From a phage, in the sequence record PX393109.1: a DNA stretch of 64,000 nucleotides. The stretch is one strand, 5' to 3'. This document shows positions 10,829 through 19,746 of the stretch, in pieces. The notes beneath the pieces are model-generated. The model had not been told where the DNA came from. It saw only the letters and a list, made by a program, of their open reading frames with translations, and ran no database searches. Within the stretch, counting starts at the first letter, position 1. Each line of letters opens with the position of its first letter. Both the position numbers and the translations under genes were made by a program.

Positions 10829-10856
10829 TATAGGACATCTTCGGGTGTCCTATGTC
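10829..10856 (+). promoter_or_regulatory. Conserved hairpin motif B copy
   Basis: ctataggaca-tcttcggg-tgtcctatg (8-bp stem, CUUCGG loop) between ACP stop and next start. Confidence 0.45.
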
Positions 10857-10877
10857 GGTATCATTGAGGATAAAATA

Positions 10878-11111
10878 ATGGTTAAATATGTAGTTCACCC
10901 AGGTCCTGTGTTAAGTGCCGATGGTGATATGCATCATATATCATTCCACAGGTTATGCCAGCTATATAGGGTTAGCCCTAAAGACTGCGTTAAAGCTCCT
11001 CAGACCGAAGACGAATTAAGAGGTCACAGGGGATTTCCTGAAGGAGTTATTCACCTCTACCCCAGCAGCAGCGGTAACTATACATTGGAGAAGTACGATG
11101 AACAAAGATAA
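10878..11111 (+). CDS. hypothetical protein
   Basis: ATG (MVKYVVHPG) with SD GAGGA. Confidence 0.5.
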   Translation: MVKYVVHPGPVLSADGDMHHISFHRLCQLYRVSPKDCVKAPQTEDELRGHRGFPEGVIHLYPSSSGNYTLEKYDEQR

Positions 11112-11160
11112 TGCTTATTAGATACTGGTACATGTAATCTACTAGAATAAAATAATCATA

Positions 11161-11186
11161 GGGAGACTTCGGTCTCCCTTATTTTT
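11161..11186 (+). terminator. Rho-independent terminator
   Basis: gggagac-ttcg-gtctccc followed by ttattttt. Confidence 0.8.
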
Positions 11187-11203
11187 ACGTATGGAGTTTA
11201 ACG

Positions 11204-11911
11204 ATGGTTGATAAGAATAAAGTATTCCAGGTTCTGCAAGCTGGCCGTGGTACTATTAACCCACTCAGCGATGTAGGCGCTGTAGCTGGTGAGAAAACCC
11301 AGTCTGTAGTTAGCGGATTAAGCCAGCTACAGAATCCTTCGGCACTTAAGGCAGAAGCTCTTAATAAGGCCGGTATAGATCCAGCCTATATCAACGCAGC
11401 CCAGATAGCTATGGAGGGTAACTTATCCAGCATCTCTACGCTAGTTGCCTACGGTGATGAATCTGTACAGAACATGTACTCCAGAATTAACATAGCCAAG
11501 AACTATGCAGCAGCCATGGATAAATTCGGTGTAGCTACGGCATGTACCCCATTTAACTCTGTGATGGGTATCGTGGGTGGTATTGGCCAACGAGCACTGA
11601 ATACAGTCACAGAGGCCGTTGGGGAAGCAGCTAACAGCATTGAGGAGTTCCTGGGCCTGGACGATACCGAAGATCTTCTGGTTAAGGCTCAGGAACTTAA
11701 GGATACTCTGGATGGTGCTTTTGAGTCGGTAGCTACTTTCGTTAAGGACGTAACCGACTACATTAACGAAGAGGCATTACTCCTTAAAGAGTACATGACT
11801 ACCGCAATTAACTCAGCACTTACTGAAGTACTTGGTGACTGGGTTGATGGGGAATGCACTTCAGCTATTATGGATACGGTCCTTAGCCCAGAGGTTAGAC
11901 AGTACTTATGA
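11204..11911 (+). CDS. hypothetical protein
   Basis: 235-aa ORF directly upstream of the glycosyltransferase cluster. Confidence 0.6.
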   Translation: MVDKNKVFQVLQAGRGTINPLSDVGAVAGEKTQSVVSGLSQLQNPSALKAEALNKAGIDPAYINAAQIAMEGNLSSISTLVAYGDESVQNMYSRINIAKNYAAAMDKFGVATACTPFNSVMGIVGGIGQRALNTVTEAVGEAANSIEEFLGLDDTEDLLVKAQELKDTLDGAFESVATFVKDVTDYINEEALLLKEYMTTAINSALTEVLGDWVDGECTSAIMDTVLSPEVRQYL

Positions 11912-12444
11912 TAAAGAGAATAATGTGTGTAGCTAGCGGTCCTTCTCTAACCGAGGAGGATTATTTACTACTTGCTAGTAAGTCCGACTTGGTTATTAGC
12001 GCTAATAACGCCATGTTCTCATCCAGACCTCCCAATATAGTTTATGGATTCGATCCTATCTGGTGGGAGCATAATTATAATAATGTCCCAAGCACATGCT
12101 CTAAGTACAGCCATCTTCCTGTAGAGAATCACCCAGATGTAAAACAGTTCTTCTACTTGAATAGTTGTTATAGCTCGGGCGCTCAAGCTATCTTCTTGGC
12201 CAGCGTATTTGCTCCTAAAGAGATAGTACTTCTCGGCTATGACTGTGATATTTCAGATGGTAGCCATTTCCATGGAGATCATACTGGTGGGTTAACTAAT
12301 CCAGATCTTGAAACAGTTGCTAAATGGATTGAGGACTATTACTTGGTCCAGAGATACCTTCCAGATAGTATTACTATAATCAATTGTACCAGAAGGACTA
12401 AAATAACATGCTTCGAGAGGCTAAGTATAGAAGACCTGCCATAA
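11908..12444 (+). CDS. glycosyltransferase-like protein (GT42 / DUF115-like Rossmann fold)
   Basis: N-terminal IMCVASGPSLTEEDY resembles the Cst-II / Maf-type GNGPSL nucleotide-sugar binding start. Confidence 0.5.
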   Translation: MIKRIMCVASGPSLTEEDYLLLASKSDLVISANNAMFSSRPPNIVYGFDPIWWEHNYNNVPSTCSKYSHLPVENHPDVKQFFYLNSCYSSGAQAIFLASVFAPKEIVLLGYDCDISDGSHFHGDHTGGLTNPDLETVAKWIEDYYLVQRYLPDSITIINCTRRTKITCFERLSIEDLP

Positions 12445-13043
12445 TTGTAGCAGATGGACCATCGGCAAGAGGATTCACTCCTCCACATGAGATACCGATA
12501 TTTGCGGTTAATGGTGCCATAGAGTGGTTACCCAGAGCTAATTACTTCTTTACTCTGGATCCTAGCCAAGCTAATCTATGCCGTATCCAGAATCCTAGGA
12601 TGGGTACTCGTTATTACCTTGCTGTGGACGAAGCAGATATGCATCTATATTCTGGTTATAAAGCACACTTACTTAAGCGGGACGAACATCGTGGGGAGGA
12701 GCCTATCTATGGTACTCCTCTATGGTGGCTGTGGAGATGGCGAGCAGTTCCTGGGTTATCTGAGGATCCTGATGTAATCAGTTCCGGGAATAGCGCTTAT
12801 GGGGCGATCGGATTAGCTTATCATATGGGTCACACTGATCTCTTGTTGGTTGGGGTAGATGGTAGCCCAGAACCAAGAGTATCTGGTGGGGTACCAAATA
12901 ACCTTAGCCATCTTCCTATTTTAATTAAGTCGGCTACAGAAAAGATAAATATACAGTCGCTATCAGGGATTGGTGGGACTCGTAAAACTACTGTTGAGGA
13001 ATGGGTGAATGAAGTTACTGTATATAGCAAATTGTCCTGGTAG
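12408..13043 (+). CDS. glycosyltransferase-like protein, paralog of the upstream gene
   Basis: AIIVADGPSA...IFAVNGAIEW...FTLDP parallels the upstream protein. Confidence 0.5.
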   Translation: MLREAKYRRPAIIVADGPSARGFTPPHEIPIFAVNGAIEWLPRANYFFTLDPSQANLCRIQNPRMGTRYYLAVDEADMHLYSGYKAHLLKRDEHRGEEPIYGTPLWWLWRWRAVPGLSEDPDVISSGNSAYGAIGLAYHMGHTDLLLVGVDGSPEPRVSGGVPNNLSHLPILIKSATEKINIQSLSGIGGTRKTTVEEWVNEVTVYSKLSW

Positions 13044-18332: not shown

Positions 18333-18887
18333 ATGAGTAGTAATCGTAATGTAGTGGAAGAGACTCTGGACTTAATCAACAATCTCTTCCGCAGTAAATT
18401 AAGTGGTGATCTCAATGCTATGGAGTTCACCATGAGCCGTAAAGAAGTAGCAGACATCCTCAATCACGTGAAGATGTCTATCACGAATAACTGCGTCGCT
18501 ATTCCTGATGGTCTGCATCCTGATACTCGTGAGTTGGTTCTGGACTTCGCTGGGAAGATGGCTAAGAAGTTACATAAAGCCCAGGTTAAGTATGGATTCA
18601 CCAACGGATGGCGTCATCCTAACTGGGATACGGCTAAGGGTAATGATCAGTTCGAAGACCCTACCCAGTGCATCATCGCATTTAGCCACCATATCGATAA
18701 GGGTGATCCTGTCGACGTGGCTAACTACTGCGCATTCATGGATTGGCATGGATGGTCCGCTAAATATGTCCCTGCCCCACACACTGTCACCATCGACAAT
18801 AAGGGTATGGTAGGGTCCATTAAACCAGCAACCGAGCCTGGATATGGGACCGATTATGTTGGTAGCATAGGAGACATGCCTCAGTGA
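18333..18887 (+). CDS. hypothetical protein
   Basis: ATG (MSSNRNV) with SD AAGGAAG. Confidence 0.55.
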   Translation: MSSNRNVVEETLDLINNLFRSKLSGDLNAMEFTMSRKEVADILNHVKMSITNNCVAIPDGLHPDTRELVLDFAGKMAKKLHKAQVKYGFTNGWRHPNWDTAKGNDQFEDPTQCIIAFSHHIDKGDPVDVANYCAFMDWHGWSAKYVPAPHTVTIDNKGMVGSIKPATEPGYGTDYVGSIGDMPQ

Positions 18888-19111
18888 ATAAAATAATGAT
18901 GATGGGTATACTCGAAAATATTGTAACCCTTATCTGCATGACTGTTCTAGTATTGGGCCTTTATTATATGGGAGCATCATGGTGGTCGGCTATACCTGGG
19001 CTATTGGTATTCAATCTTAGTTCTGTTAAGTATAAGGAAACTAAGTCTGTTGGTCACCCAGAGAATACCACACCAACTGGGGAGGTTGCTGCTCCTCCTA
19101 AGGACAGATAA
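18884..19111 (+). CDS. small membrane protein
   Basis: Two hydrophobic segments. Confidence 0.5.
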   Translation: MNKIMMMGILENIVTLICMTVLVLGLYYMGASWWSAIPGLLVFNLSSVKYKETKSVGHPENTTPTGEVAAPPKDR

Positions 19112-19422
19112 TGGAACAGTTCCGCATTGAATTAAAGATATGGAGCGCAGATATCGGGGAACGCCCTCCGGAGGGGGACGTTAACTGGAGAACTGCCTAC
19201 TGCATTTTAGGTCCTGTTAATGAAGAAGACTGGACTTTAGATAAAGATAAGGCTACTTTGCTTAGTTATGACCGTCTGGATGAGCTAAATCTGTTCGGTT
19301 TAGCTGCAAGATGCCGTAATTCCCTACGTTTATCTAACTGGGAACTAGGCTCCGTGAACATAATTAAGCTGGTAGATCCTGAGCTTATCCATATCAACAT
19401 AACGATAGATAAAGAGTATTAA
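19111..19422 (+). CDS. hypothetical protein
   Basis: ORF. Confidence 0.5.
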   Translation: MEQFRIELKIWSADIGERPPEGDVNWRTAYCILGPVNEEDWTLDKDKATLLSYDRLDELNLFGLAARCRNSLRLSNWELGSVNIIKLVDPELIHINITIDKEY

Positions 19423-19432
19423 GGAGCTTAAA

Positions 19433-19666
19433 ATGGATAAAGAGTTAAATGGTGCAGAAGAAGATGTTCTGTACAAATTATTCTGGTTCGGACCAGCAGC
19501 AGACGGAGACCTACCATCTAAATCTGGAGCATCTGGCTTGGTAGATAAAGGATTAGCTGCCTGGTTTAAGGGTAATAATCTCTGCCCTAAGATTTATGAT
19601 GACCGTAACATGTGTATGCTTACTTCCCTTGGGGTAGACTTAGCCAGAAATAAGTATACTAAATAA
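19433..19666 (+). CDS. hypothetical protein
   Basis: ORF with SD AAGGAG. Confidence 0.5.
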   Translation: MDKELNGAEEDVLYKLFWFGPAADGDLPSKSGASGLVDKGLAAWFKGNNLCPKIYDDRNMCMLTSLGVDLARNKYTK

Positions 19667-19668
19667 AA

Positions 19669-19704
19669 CCGCTCTTTTGTACGGTCAAAAGGCTGTTAAA
19701 CTGT
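19669..19704 (+). promoter_or_regulatory. Conserved motif A copy (candidate phage promoter)
   Basis: ccgctcttttgtacggtcaaaaggctgttaaactgt. Confidence 0.5.
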
Positions 19705-19714
19705 AGAGGTTATT

Positions 19715-19746
19715 CCTATAGAGCATCTGATGGTGCTCTATGTGAA
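19715..19746 (+). promoter_or_regulatory. Conserved hairpin motif B copy
   Basis: cctatagagca-tctgatgg-tgctctatgtgaa, followed by tandem taggagatat x2 and ATG (19779). Confidence 0.45.

What the first reader, a model, noticed from the sequence alone, without database searches (positions are those of the whole stretch)
10829..19746. Second conserved element: CTATAG...CTATGTGAA hairpins with CUUCGG-type loops
Three intergenic sites (about 10829, 17538, 19715) share ctataG-stem-loop-ctatgt(gaa) with 8-bp stems; the 17538 and 19715 copies are nearly identical in layout. Separately, terminator hairpins at 3937 and 11161 use the extra-stable UUCG-type loop (cttcgg). These may be RNase III or processing sites, or attenuators, placed between genes in the early region.
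Basis: seen in the sequence. Interest (0 to 1): 0.5.

Follow-up and report, generated by a model that had tools for sequence, protein, structure and literature searches.

The report
T7-type RNase III processing hairpins
The repeated CTATAG…CTATGT hairpins are the tops of four longer double-stemmed RNA hairpins between genes of an E. coli phage, and they closely resemble the sites where the host enzyme RNase III cuts phage T7 messenger RNA; this is a known kind of signal, found here in an unrelated and little-studied phage.

Summary
Three + strand intergenic hairpins (10828, 17538, 19716) share C-UAUAG-NN-YAU…GUG-N'N'-CUAUG-U. Each is only the upper stem (10-11 bp, with U·G wobbles) of a roughly 50-nt two-tier hairpin. 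A 7-10 bp lower stem lies below a C•U mismatch or small internal loop, giving 19-22 bp in all.

A covariance model built only from seven phage T7 RNase III sites ranks these sites 1st, 3rd and 4th in the 64-kb window. It also finds a fourth site at 15685-15731, ranked 2nd. A model built from non-T7 copies recovers 7 of the 10 T7 sites.

The invariant bases coincide with the distal-box and proximal-box pairs that E. coli RNase III recognises. The same motif with covarying stems occurs in SP6-like, T1-like, prophage and marine phage contigs: 45 of 48 pattern hits are perfect hairpins.

Best reading (about 0.75): these are host RNase III processing sites that cut the phage's polycistronic early/middle mRNAs. 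The predicted cut is just after CUAUGU. Cleavage itself is untested.

The hairpins at 3937 and 11160 are ordinary intrinsic-terminator-like hairpins with cUUCGg loops.

Verdict: a new member of a known kind, of moderate interest.

The parts
10818..10866 (+). RNase III-like site 1. Lower stem CAGUGAUA/UAUCAUUG (8 bp), small internal loop with a C•U mismatch, upper stem UAUAGGACAUC/GGUGUCCUAUG (11 bp), loop UUCG. It lies 4 nt after the stop codon of the carrier-protein-like ORF (10569-10823) and before the SD and ATG at 10878. The predicted 3'-side cut is 10855|10856.
   Evidence: -24.1 kcal/mol, z -4.5; T7-only model R1 gives 40.5 bits, E 6e-7, rank 1; R2 gives 60.2 bits
15685..15731 (+). RNase III-like site 4, not in the finding. 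Lower stem 10 bp, internal loop UC/UAU, upper stem GAUGGUACU/AGUGCCAUC (9 bp), loop UACG. It overlaps the stop codon at 15687-15689 and ends 10 nt before the SD of the gene starting at 15752. The predicted cut is 15721|15722 (…CCAUCUAU|UAAU, compare T7 CCUUUAU|GAU).
   Evidence: 28.9 bits, E 4e-4, rank 2 with the T7-only model; -21.2 kcal/mol, z -4.7; the - strand folds at only -9.1; 4 structure-preserving changes against EP_H11 and IME392
17524..17576 (+). RNase III-like site 2. Lower stem 7(+3) bp (UUAGCAU/AUGUUAA), internal loop, upper stem UAUAGGGUAU/GUGCCCUAUG (10 bp), loop UUCG. It lies 6 nt after the stop codon at 17529-17531 and before the SD and ATG at 17590. The predicted cut is 17563|17564.
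   Evidence: -23.8 kcal/mol, z -3.9; R1 gives only 13.8 bits, E 2.1, but still rank 4; R2 gives 36.8 bits
19706..19753 (+). RNase III-like site 3. Lower stem GAGGUUAUUC/GAAUAGUCUU (10 bp), a single C•U mismatch, upper stem UAUAGAGCAUC/GGUGCUCUAUG (11 bp), loop UGAU. It lies directly downstream of a promoter-like repeat and before the SD and ATG at 19779. The predicted cut is 19743|19744.
   Evidence: -25.6 kcal/mol, z -5.2; R1 gives 22.6 bits, E 0.014, rank 3; R2 gives 53.7 bits
19667..19704 (+). Context: one copy of the phage's promoter-like repeat (CCGCTCTTT-N-AAAGGCTGTTAAACTGT), ending 1 nt before the lower stem of site 3. T7 has the same order of promoter then RNase III site at phi1.1A/R1.1 and phi1.3/R1.3.
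   Evidence: 8 matches at up to 1 mismatch, 7 of them exact on the + strand, against 0.31 expected
11160..11179 (+). A separate class: intrinsic-terminator-like hairpin AGGGAGAC-UUCG-GUCUCCCU followed by UAUUUUUACG, with a cUUCGg loop. It closes the unit that contains site 1.
3937..3954 (+). A separate class: terminator-like hairpin GGAGGAC-UUCG-GUCCUCC followed by UAAUUCUUCC, which is a weak U-tract. It has a cUUCGg loop.

Best explanation
The four elements are intercistronic processing signals for the host's double-strand-specific endoribonuclease RNase III, of the type known from phage T7.

Proposed mechanism. When the + strand early/middle gene block is transcribed as long polycistronic RNA, each element folds into a hairpin of about two helical turns. 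The lower stem is 7-10 bp, a C•U mismatch or small internal loop follows, and the upper stem is 9-11 bp. RNase III binds through the conserved A:U/U·G distal-box pairs near the loop and the A/U-rich G:C-A:U-U:A-A:U proximal box at the base of the upper stem. It then cuts at the mismatch.

By register with T7 R1.1 (…CCUUUAU|GAU), the 3'-side cut should fall just after CUAUGU: at 10855|10856, 17563|17564 and 19743|19744, and at 15721|15722 for site 4. That cut would leave the upper hairpin as a protective 3' end on the upstream message. It would also free the downstream message with a short leader in front of its ribosome-binding site.

Because these helices are more fully paired than T7's, a second cut on the 5' side (CU|AUAG) is possible. 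That would release the upper hairpin.

Shown here: the structures, their strand specificity, their covariation, their intergenic placement and their resemblance to T7 sites. Inferred: that RNase III is the enzyme, the cut positions, and the effects on mRNA stability and translation.
For: (1) Model R1 was built only from seven T7 sites. Scanned without filters over both strands of the window, it ranks site 1 first (40.5 bits, E 6e-7), the new site at 15683-15737 second (E 4e-4), site 3 third (E 0.014) and site 2 fourth (E 2.1). All four are on the + strand and intergenic. Other long hairpins in the window, such as the 15-bp stem at 28484, score 12.8 bits or less.

(2) The reciprocal test: model R2, built from non-T7 sequences, finds T7 R0.3, R1.1, R18.5, R0.5, R4.7, R1 and also R6.5, which was not used for R1. 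These score E 1.6e-10 to 1.4e-3, and no other T7 hit scores below E 1.9. In the window R2 separates four sites (36.8 bits or more) from everything else (11.9 bits or less).

(3) Architecture: 19-22 bp in two coaxial stems, with a mismatch or internal loop. According to PMC1540722, E. coli RNase III substrates typically have two helical turns, and internal loops limit cutting to one strand and leave protective 3' hairpins.

(4) With the A:U/U·G pairs placed at positions 14:25 and 15:24 of R1.1, the invariant bases of the motif fall on the distal box (A:U, U·G), on C13:G26 of the middle box, and on the proximal box (G:C, A:U, U:A, A:U, with no G:C at proximal-box positions 2 or 4). The C•U mismatch falls at 5:34, next to the scissile bond, as in T7 CUCAAGG…CCUUUAU|G. 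The two variable pairs fall at 11:28 and 12:27. This mapping rests on the sequence plus PMC1540722. The R1 alignment gives the same register.

(5) Covariation across 17 distinct sequences: 91% of cells are paired against 35-44% when partners are slid; 15 of 19 pairs change on both sides; the unconstrained lower helix has 8 of 9 such pairs.

(6) The exact-word scan of viral contigs returned 48 loci. Of these, 45 are perfect 10-12 bp hairpins with covarying middle pairs and lower stems. Most lie 3-10 nt after a same-strand stop codon and 20-43 nt before a start codon. They include SP6-like phage UAB_Phi78 and SP6 itself, T1-like coliphages, Erwiniaceae prophages and marine phage contigs.

(7) No RNase III signature was found in six-frame translations of the window or of EP_H11 and IME392. 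The E. coli host enzyme is therefore the candidate.

(8) Site 4 differs from its orthologues by four changes, all of which preserve pairing.
Against: - No cleavage or transcript-end data exist for this phage, so the enzyme and cut sites are inferred.
- Site 2 is weak with the T7-only model (E 2.1). Its distal box abuts the loop with no pair above it.
- Site 4 has the A:U and U·G pairs in the opposite order.
- Pairwise sequence identity to individual T7 sites (28-37 of about 55 nt) is not above shuffled controls. The resemblance is therefore one of structure plus a few positions, and common descent is not shown.
- The conserved AT and GTG in the collection hits were imposed by my search pattern.
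- Alignment A3 was selected by, and fitted to, the T7-derived model, which inflates agreement.
- The T7 site coordinates other than R1.1 (5887, confirmed in PMC8708148) come from my memory of Dunn & Studier 1983.
- Model E-values are rough because calibration was short.
Confidence: 0.75

Rival explanations
1. The hairpins are structural elements of the mRNA that act without RNase III cutting. Possible roles are barriers to 3' or 5' exonucleolytic decay, modulators of translation of the next gene, or binding sites for RNase III (or another double-strand RNA-binding protein, host or phage) that binds but does not cleave.
For: The hairpins are very stable and sense-strand specific, and they sit immediately in front of ribosome-binding sites. 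PMC1540722 notes that fully Watson-Crick helices and certain motifs can bind RNase III without being cleaved. No cleavage data exist.
Against: This does not explain why the invariant positions coincide with the boxes that give optimal RNase III recognition and cleavage. It also does not explain why the mismatch sits exactly where T7 sites are cut (alignment; PMC1540722). A:U/U:A pairs, not the G:C pairs that block catalysis, occupy the proximal-box position next to the predicted scissile bond.
Confidence: 0.13
2. The elements are signals for the phage's own RNA polymerase: a promoter (CTATAG resembles the -5 to +1 part of T7 and SP6 promoters), a pause site, or a factor-independent terminator without a U-tract.
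For: The phage family encodes split beta and beta' subunits, and its signals are unknown. Sigma-70-like promoters are depleted. Site 3 lies next to a promoter-like repeat.
Against: The sequence upstream of CTATAG is not conserved among the copies. The same motif occurs in lambdoid-type prophages and T1-like phages that lack a phage polymerase, and in SP6-like phages it lies upstream of the RNA polymerase gene, in the early region. I take that region to be read by the host polymerase, from own knowledge. Compensatory changes and U·G pairs point to an RNA structure read on one strand. A different and much more frequent repeat is the better promoter candidate.
Confidence: 0.05
3. The elements are DNA-level sites, namely imperfect palindromes bound by a repressor, recombinase or homing endonuclease, or small mobile repeats.
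For: Each is an inverted repeat with conserved ends, present in several copies per genome and in many unrelated phages.
Against: The arm mismatches are always T opposite G on the + strand, which means C opposite A on the other strand. As double-stranded DNA the palindrome is therefore imperfect in a strand-biased way. The orientation always matches the flanking genes. The lower stems covary without sequence conservation, which a protein-binding DNA site would not need.
Confidence: 0.04
4. The similarity is a chance resemblance among ordinary intergenic hairpins.
For: The bare word pattern is only marginally enriched in the window (3 against 0.79 expected). Pairwise identity to T7 sites is not above shuffles.
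Against: Model E-values are as low as 6e-7. There is a clean score gap in the window (36.8 bits against 11.9). In viral contigs 45 of 48 pattern hits are perfect hairpins, whereas 27 of 47 hits in bacterial genomes pair over only the 5-6 base pairs that the search words themselves bring.
Confidence: 0.01

Closest known systems
Phage T7 RNase III processing sites (R0.3, R0.5, R1, R1.1, R1.3, R4.7, R18.5; Dunn & Studier 1983; R1.1 substrate work, PMC1540722 and PMC8708148)
   Same: - Sense-strand and intercistronic, often just downstream of a phage promoter.
- Upper stem of about 10 bp with a tetraloop, a mismatch or internal loop, then a lower stem, giving about two helical turns.
- The same CAU…GUG (A:U, U·G) pairs near the loop, the same C•U mismatch beside the T7 cut, and an A/U-rich base of the upper stem.
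- Each set of sites is recognised by a model built from the other.
   Different: - The base of the upper stem reads CUAUAG/CUAUGU instead of CUCAAGG/CCUUUAU. As a result the cleavage zone is nearly fully paired: one C•U mismatch instead of a 3x3-4 internal loop.
- The distal box lies 0-1 bp from the loop rather than 2 bp.
- The phage is an unrelated 111-116 kb myovirus with its own multisubunit RNA polymerase and probably hypermodified thymidine (PMC12686479).
- Cleavage is unproven.
Unannotated intergenic hairpins of SP6-like phages (SP6 AY370673 at about 2360-2420; UAB_Phi78) and T1-like coliphages (herni, PGN590)
   Same: These carry the identical CUAUAG…CUAUGU words. In SP6 the flanks AGCCUAUAG…CUAUGUGAAAU are the same as at window site 2. 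The middle pairs covary, lower stems are present, and the position is intergenic on the sense strand.
   Different: These are different phage families, and the lower-stem sequences are unrelated. No function is annotated in those records, and I could not find a description in the searchable literature.
Cellular and lambda RNase III sites (rRNA precursor stems, rnc leader, rpsO-pnp, lambda N leader and sib). This entry rests on own knowledge and PMC8708148.
   Same: Presumably the same enzyme, and the same need for about two turns of helix.
   Different: By the literature (PMC1540722, PMC8708148; not compared here), cellular E. coli RNase III substrates share no strong sequence consensus, and some are long duplexes cut on both strands. 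They do not carry the compact conserved upper hairpin seen here.
Intrinsic terminators capped by C(UUCG)G tetraloops, as first noted in phage T4 (Tuerk et al. 1988; own knowledge). This applies only to 3937-3954 and 11160-11179.
   Same: A G+C-rich 7-8 bp stem, a cUUCGg loop and a T-rich tail.
   Different: Nothing unusual. The tail at 3937 is a weak U-tract.

Membership tests
T7-type RNase III processing signal | Lies on the sense strand between cistrons of a polycistronic transcript | tested here: met
   All four sites are on the + strand inside the + strand gene block. They lie from overlapping the upstream stop codon up to about 50 nt after it, and 22-35 nt before the next start codon.
T7-type RNase III processing signal | Irregular hairpin of about two helical turns (about 20-22 bp), formed by an upper and a lower stem | tested here: met
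   Lower plus upper stems are 8+11, 10+9, 7(+3)+10 and 10+11 bp. Energies are -21 to -26 kcal/mol with z -3.9 to -5.2. The requirement itself is stated in PMC1540722.
T7-type RNase III processing signal | Internal loop or mismatch at the cleavage zone between the two stems | tested here: met
   Sites 1-3 have a conserved C•U mismatch, with extra unpaired bases at sites 1 and 2. Site 4 has a UC/UAU loop. These are smaller than the T7 loops.
T7-type RNase III processing signal | Distal box: an A:U pair followed by a U·G pair at a fixed distance from the cut | tested here: met
   Sites 1-3 carry CAU…GUG (or UAU…GUG) in the T7 register, by direct reading of the sequence and the alignment, with the box definition from PMC1540722. 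Site 4 has the two pairs in reversed order, so 3 of 4 sites meet the feature strictly.
T7-type RNase III processing signal | Proximal box without the inhibitory G:C or C:G pair at positions 2 and 4 | tested here: met
   In the T7 register, sites 1-3 read G:C, A:U, U:A, A:U at proximal-box positions 1-4 (sequence; rules from PMC1540722).
T7-type RNase III processing signal | Recognised by a sequence-plus-structure model of experimentally mapped T7 sites | tested here: met
   Model R1 (T7 sites only) gives E 6e-7, 4e-4 and 0.014 for sites 1, 4 and 3. Site 2 scores only E 2.1, though it ranks 4th. The reciprocal search recovers 7 of 10 T7 sites.
T7-type RNase III processing signal | Base pairing maintained by compensatory change in related copies | tested here: met
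   91% of cells are paired against 35-44% when partners are slid, and 15 of 19 pairs change on both sides. The alignment was fitted to the model. The orthologous site 4 shows structure-preserving changes.
T7-type RNase III processing signal | Cut by RNase III in vivo (rnc-dependent ends) or in vitro | not testable with these tools
   No transcript data and no enzyme assay were available.
Intrinsic (factor-independent) terminator | G+C-rich hairpin followed directly by a run of U | tested here: not met
   The hairpins at sites 1-3 are followed by UCGGUAUC, UGAAAUGU and UGAAUAGU and are not listed by the terminator scan. Only the upper stem of site 4 is listed, with a mixed tail TATTAATATT. The feature is met by the separate hairpins at 3937-3954 and 11160-11179.
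T7/SP6-type single-subunit polymerase promoter | A conserved block of about 17 nt upstream of CTATAG (+1 at the G) | tested here: not met
   The bases upstream of CTATAG are not conserved among the three copies. The motif also occurs in prophages and T1-like phages that have no such polymerase.
Any curated Rfam family | Match at or above a family's gathering score | tested here: not met
   There were no hits in the window, none at E up to 5 on the four sites, and none in the whole T7 genome either. Rfam therefore has no model for this class, and the negative result is uninformative.

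The most novel reading that the evidence does not exclude
The CUAUAG…CUAUGU hairpin could be a discrete 'consensus' RNase III site that has not been described, at least not in the literature I could search or in Rfam. On this reading it is shared, by repeated horizontal transfer or by convergence onto the enzyme's optimal recognition boxes, among otherwise unrelated phages: T7/SP6-like podoviruses, T1-like siphoviruses, enterobacterial prophages, marine phages, and this RNAP-encoding myovirus with probably hypermodified DNA. Because its cleavage zone is almost fully paired, it might be cut on both strands and release a roughly 28-nt hairpin RNA. In that case it would behave as a portable mRNA-punctuation cassette, a little differently from the single-cut T7 sites.
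Probability: 0.25. Interest if true: 0.55.

Novelty: new member of a known kind. Interest (0 to 1): 0.36.

Why it matters
- It gives the first functional annotation of non-coding signals in a poorly characterised E. coli phage group (EP_H11 and IME392: nearly all genes hypothetical, own multisubunit RNA polymerase, probably hypermodified thymidine). It also predicts, to the nucleotide, where the early/middle transcripts are cut.
- It suggests this phage still depends on a host RNA-processing enzyme, even though it brings its own transcription machinery.
- More broadly, the invariant bases of a motif found in many unrelated phages coincide with the distal and proximal boxes defined biochemically on one T7 substrate. 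This is natural-sequence support for positive recognition determinants of bacterial RNase III.
- The covariance models made here could be used to annotate such sites in phage genomes. Rfam has no family for them.

Tried and rejected
- Looser word searches (TATAG…CTATG, CTATGTGAA) in the window and in both relatives found no further copies.
- The ligase next to site 1 found no relatives in viral or metagenome contigs by the peptide-pattern method, so no more diverged orthologous loci were obtained.
- Rfam and tRNA scans were empty.
- The - strand intergenic regions (late genes) show no related motif.
- A hairpin at 26013-26040 with TAT…ATG ends looked similar by eye, but neither model scores it.
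- A phage-encoded RNase III was looked for only with signature patterns in six-frame translations, and none was found. This is a crude test.
- Literature searches for earlier descriptions of such sites in SP6-like or other phages found nothing usable, and the SP6 genome paper is not held.
- T7 GenBank and RefSeq records as served do not list the RNase III sites. I therefore used remembered coordinates, checked against the folds and, for R1.1, against PMC8708148.
- Pairwise identity to T7 sites is not above shuffles, so I make no claim of common descent.
- The N4-type hairpin promoter idea was considered and dropped: by my recollection N4 hairpins have a 5-7 bp stem and a 3-nt loop, whereas these stems are 10-11 bp with 4-nt loops, and the motif also occurs in phages without a virion polymerase.

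Full report
**What is in the sequence.** The three sites named in the finding are present exactly where stated:
- 10828 CTATAGGACATC-ttcg-GGTGTCCTATGT
- 17538 CTATAGGGTAT-ttcg-GTGCCCTATGTGAA
- 19716 CTATAGAGCATC-tgat-GGTGCTCTATGTGAA

The words CTATAG and CTATG pair with each other, so the stems are 10-11 bp rather than 8. The stems contain U·G wobbles. As a result the + strand RNA folds at -13.5 to -20.1 kcal/mol, while the complementary strand folds much worse. All three sites lie between + strand ORFs: 4-49 nt after a stop codon and 22-35 nt before the next start codon. The bare word pattern is only marginally enriched, with 3 found against 0.79 expected.

The two UUCG-capped hairpins at 3937-3954 and 11160-11179 are also there. 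Both are followed by T-rich tails and are listed by the terminator scan.

**Where the window comes from.** The window is 92-97% identical to Escherichia phages EP_H11 (111 kb) and vB_EcoM_IME392 (116 kb). These are myoviruses whose records annotate split beta and beta' RNA polymerase subunits. Two papers place them in a group with probably hypermodified thymidine (PMC12686479; bioRxiv 10.1101/2025.03.26.645540). Genes at 1-28.5 kb run on the + strand and include DNA ligase, dUTPase and polymerase subunits. The structural genes run on the - strand. Each of the three genomes has exactly these three CTATAG hairpins, with identical sequences, so close relatives give no covariation for them.

**The hairpins are the tops of larger structures.** Folding about 66 nt around each site shows a second helix of 7-10 bp below the CTATAG hairpin. 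It is separated from the upper helix by a conserved C•U mismatch, with a few unpaired bases at sites 1 and 2. The total is 19-22 bp, at -21 to -26 kcal/mol, z -3.9 to -5.2, and none of 200 shuffles is as stable.

**The motif is widespread in phages.** An exact scan of IMG/VR with CTATAGNNYAT-N3-8-GTGNNCTATGT returned 48 loci.
- 45 of them are perfect 10-12 bp hairpins in which the two free pairs covary. Nearly all also have a lower stem of unrelated sequence.
- Most lie just after a same-strand stop codon and 20-43 nt before a start codon.
- They come from SP6-like phage UAB_Phi78, T1-like coliphages, a lambdoid-type prophage early region with ssb and recombination genes, roughly 90-kb RtcB-encoding contigs and marine phage contigs.
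- SP6 itself has AGCCUAUAG-UGUCAU-UCG-UGGCA-CUAUGUGAAAU between genes 5 and 6. These flanks are the same as at window site 2.

In 596 Gb of bacterial genomes the same pattern gave 47 hits. Of these, 27 pair over only the 5-6 base pairs that the search words themselves bring, so they serve as an internal control. The clearest hairpins are in Erwiniaceae prophages.

**Comparison with T7.** The T7 RNase III sites fold as upper stem, internal loop and lower stem, for example R1.1 …CUCAAGGUCAUUC-GCAA-GAGUGGCCUUUAU|GAUUG and R0.3 …CUCAAGGGUAUC-GCAA-GGUGCCCUUUAU|GAUAU. I recalled their coordinates from Dunn & Studier 1983. The R1.1 coordinate, 5887, is confirmed by PMC8708148.

A covariance model was built only from seven T7 sites and run without filters over the window. 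Its four best hits are 10817-10871 (40.5 bits, E 6e-7), 15683-15737 (28.9 bits, E 4e-4), 19705-19758 (E 0.014) and 17533-17577 (E 2.1). All are on the + strand. The second hit is a fourth site that lacks the CTATAG words but has the same two-tier fold, at -21.2 kcal/mol against -9.1 for the opposite strand. It sits between a stop codon and the next ribosome-binding site. Other long hairpins in the window score 12.8 bits or less, so the model is not simply finding any hairpin.

In the reverse direction, a model made from the non-T7 matches recovers seven of the ten T7 sites. In the window this model separates four sites (36.8 bits or more) from everything else (11.9 bits or less). In the whole EP_H11 genome, the T7-only model with default filters (E up to 1) matches only the counterparts of sites 1, 3 and 4; site 2, already weak in the window, is missed, and nothing else in that genome matches.

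**Why the conserved bases are conserved.** Pertzev & Nicholson (PMC1540722) defined three elements on the minimal R1.1 substrate:
- a distal box, with an A:U pair and a strictly required U·G pair;
- a two-pair middle box;
- a four-pair proximal box, where G:C at position 2 blocks binding and G:C at position 4 blocks catalysis.

They also showed that 11 bp between the cut and the loop is the minimum for that minimal substrate, and that natural substrates span two helical turns.

Putting the A:U and U·G pairs of sites 1-3 in the R1.1 register gives the following mapping. The invariant CAU…GUG falls on C13:G26, A14:U25 and U15·G24. The invariant UAUAG/CUAUA falls on the proximal box as G:C, A:U, U:A, A:U. 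The C•U mismatch falls on positions 5:34, where T7 also has C•U and where the 3'-side cut occurs (U34|N35). The two variable pairs fall on 11:28 and 12:27. The model alignment gives the same register.

This predicts cuts after CUAUGU: at 10855|10856, 17563|17564 and 19743|19744, and at 15721|15722 for site 4. Because the cleavage zone is more fully paired than in T7, a second cut at CU|AUAG is conceivable.

**Covariation.** On the 17 distinct sequences aligned to the model, 91% of cells are paired, against 35-44% when partners are slid. 15 of 19 pairs change on both sides, including 8 of 9 pairs in the lower helix, which my search pattern did not constrain. Among the three close genomes, site 4 carries four differences inside the upper hairpin, and all of them keep the pairing.

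**Caveats.**
- The AT and GTG words in the collection hits were imposed by my pattern.
- The alignment used for counting was selected by, and fitted to, the T7-derived model.
- Pairwise identity between window sites and single T7 sites (28-37 of about 55) is not above shuffles, so shared ancestry is not shown.
- Site 2 is weak with the T7-only model, and site 4 has the distal-box pairs reversed.
- Model E-values are rough.
- Nothing here demonstrates cleavage.
- The phage genomes show no RNase III signature in a crude six-frame pattern test. This points to the host enzyme but does not prove it.

**Rivals.** Terminator or attenuator readings fail for lack of a U-tract. A phage-polymerase promoter reading fails because the sequence upstream of CTATAG is not conserved, and because the motif occurs in phages that have no polymerase of their own. 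A different repeat, CCGCUCUUU-N-AAAGGCUGUUAAAnUGU, has seven exact + strand copies and is the better promoter candidate. One copy ends 1 nt before site 3, which repeats the T7 arrangement of promoter followed by RNase III site. A DNA-site reading is contradicted by the strand-biased wobble pairs and by the sequence-free covariation of the lower stem. A stabiliser or binding-only role without cleavage cannot be excluded.

**Comparison with what is known, and verdict.** The elements work like, and pass every computational membership test I could apply for, T7-type RNase III processing signals. The one defining feature that remains untested is cleavage. Rfam has no family for such sites; even T7's own are not matched. 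I found no description of the CUAUAG/CUAUGU variant in the searchable literature.

I rate this a new member of a known kind. It is useful for annotating an obscure phage family, and it supports the idea that RNase III has positive sequence determinants, but it is not surprising in mechanism. The hairpins at 3937 and 11160 are ordinary terminator-like hairpins with stable cUUCGg loops.

Noticed in passing
window 2826, 8583, 14619, 19688, 21085, 23804, 24879 (+): A promoter-like repeat, CCGCTCTTT-N8-10-AAAGGCTGTTAAAnTGT, stands in front of + strand genes. The AAAGGCTGTTAA core has 8 matches at up to 1 mismatch against 0.31 expected. Sigma-70-like sites are below the shuffle expectation (24 against 39.5). 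It is probably the promoter for the phage's own multisubunit RNA polymerase.
   Followed up: partly
window 2826-2880: One copy of the promoter-like motif and an inverted copy (GGCTGTTAAC…GTTAACAGCC) form a hairpin followed by TATTTTTATTT. A terminator-like structure is thus built from the promoter word.
   Followed up: no
window 20139-20830: About 690 nt have no + strand ORF, and the same gap exists in EP_H11. The stretch 20300-20830 folds at -185 kcal/mol, z -3.6 against shuffles, and includes a GCGGCGGCU/AGCCGCCGC hairpin at 20714-20736. There is no Rfam or tRNA match. It may be a structured non-coding RNA.
   Followed up: partly
window 8626-10823: An NAD-dependent DNA ligase (Pfam adenylation, OB and Nlig-Ia domains) is followed immediately by an 84-aa protein with a phosphopantetheine-attachment (carrier protein) domain. 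This is an unusual pairing in a phage replication block.
   Followed up: no
L058 (SP6 AY370673) locus 2266-2330, record about 2360-2420: SP6 carries an unannotated two-tier hairpin between genes 5 and 6, with the same AGCCUAUAG…CUAUGUGAAAU flanks as window site 2.
   Followed up: partly
L014 3866-3925 (-): A viral contig found through the CTATAG pattern has a second site, scoring 36.6 bits with the T7-only model, that lacks the exact words. The class is therefore broader than the word pattern.
   Followed up: no
window 28484-28519: A 15-bp perfect hairpin (-25 kcal/mol on either strand) has T-runs on both sides and sits exactly where the + strand and - strand gene blocks converge. It looks like a bidirectional terminator.
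   Followed up: no
window, whole: CTTCGG occurs 40 times against 22.4 expected, and 0 of 100 shuffles reach 40. Most copies are inside coding sequence. Only three cap intergenic hairpins, at 3943, 10839 and 11167.
   Followed up: no
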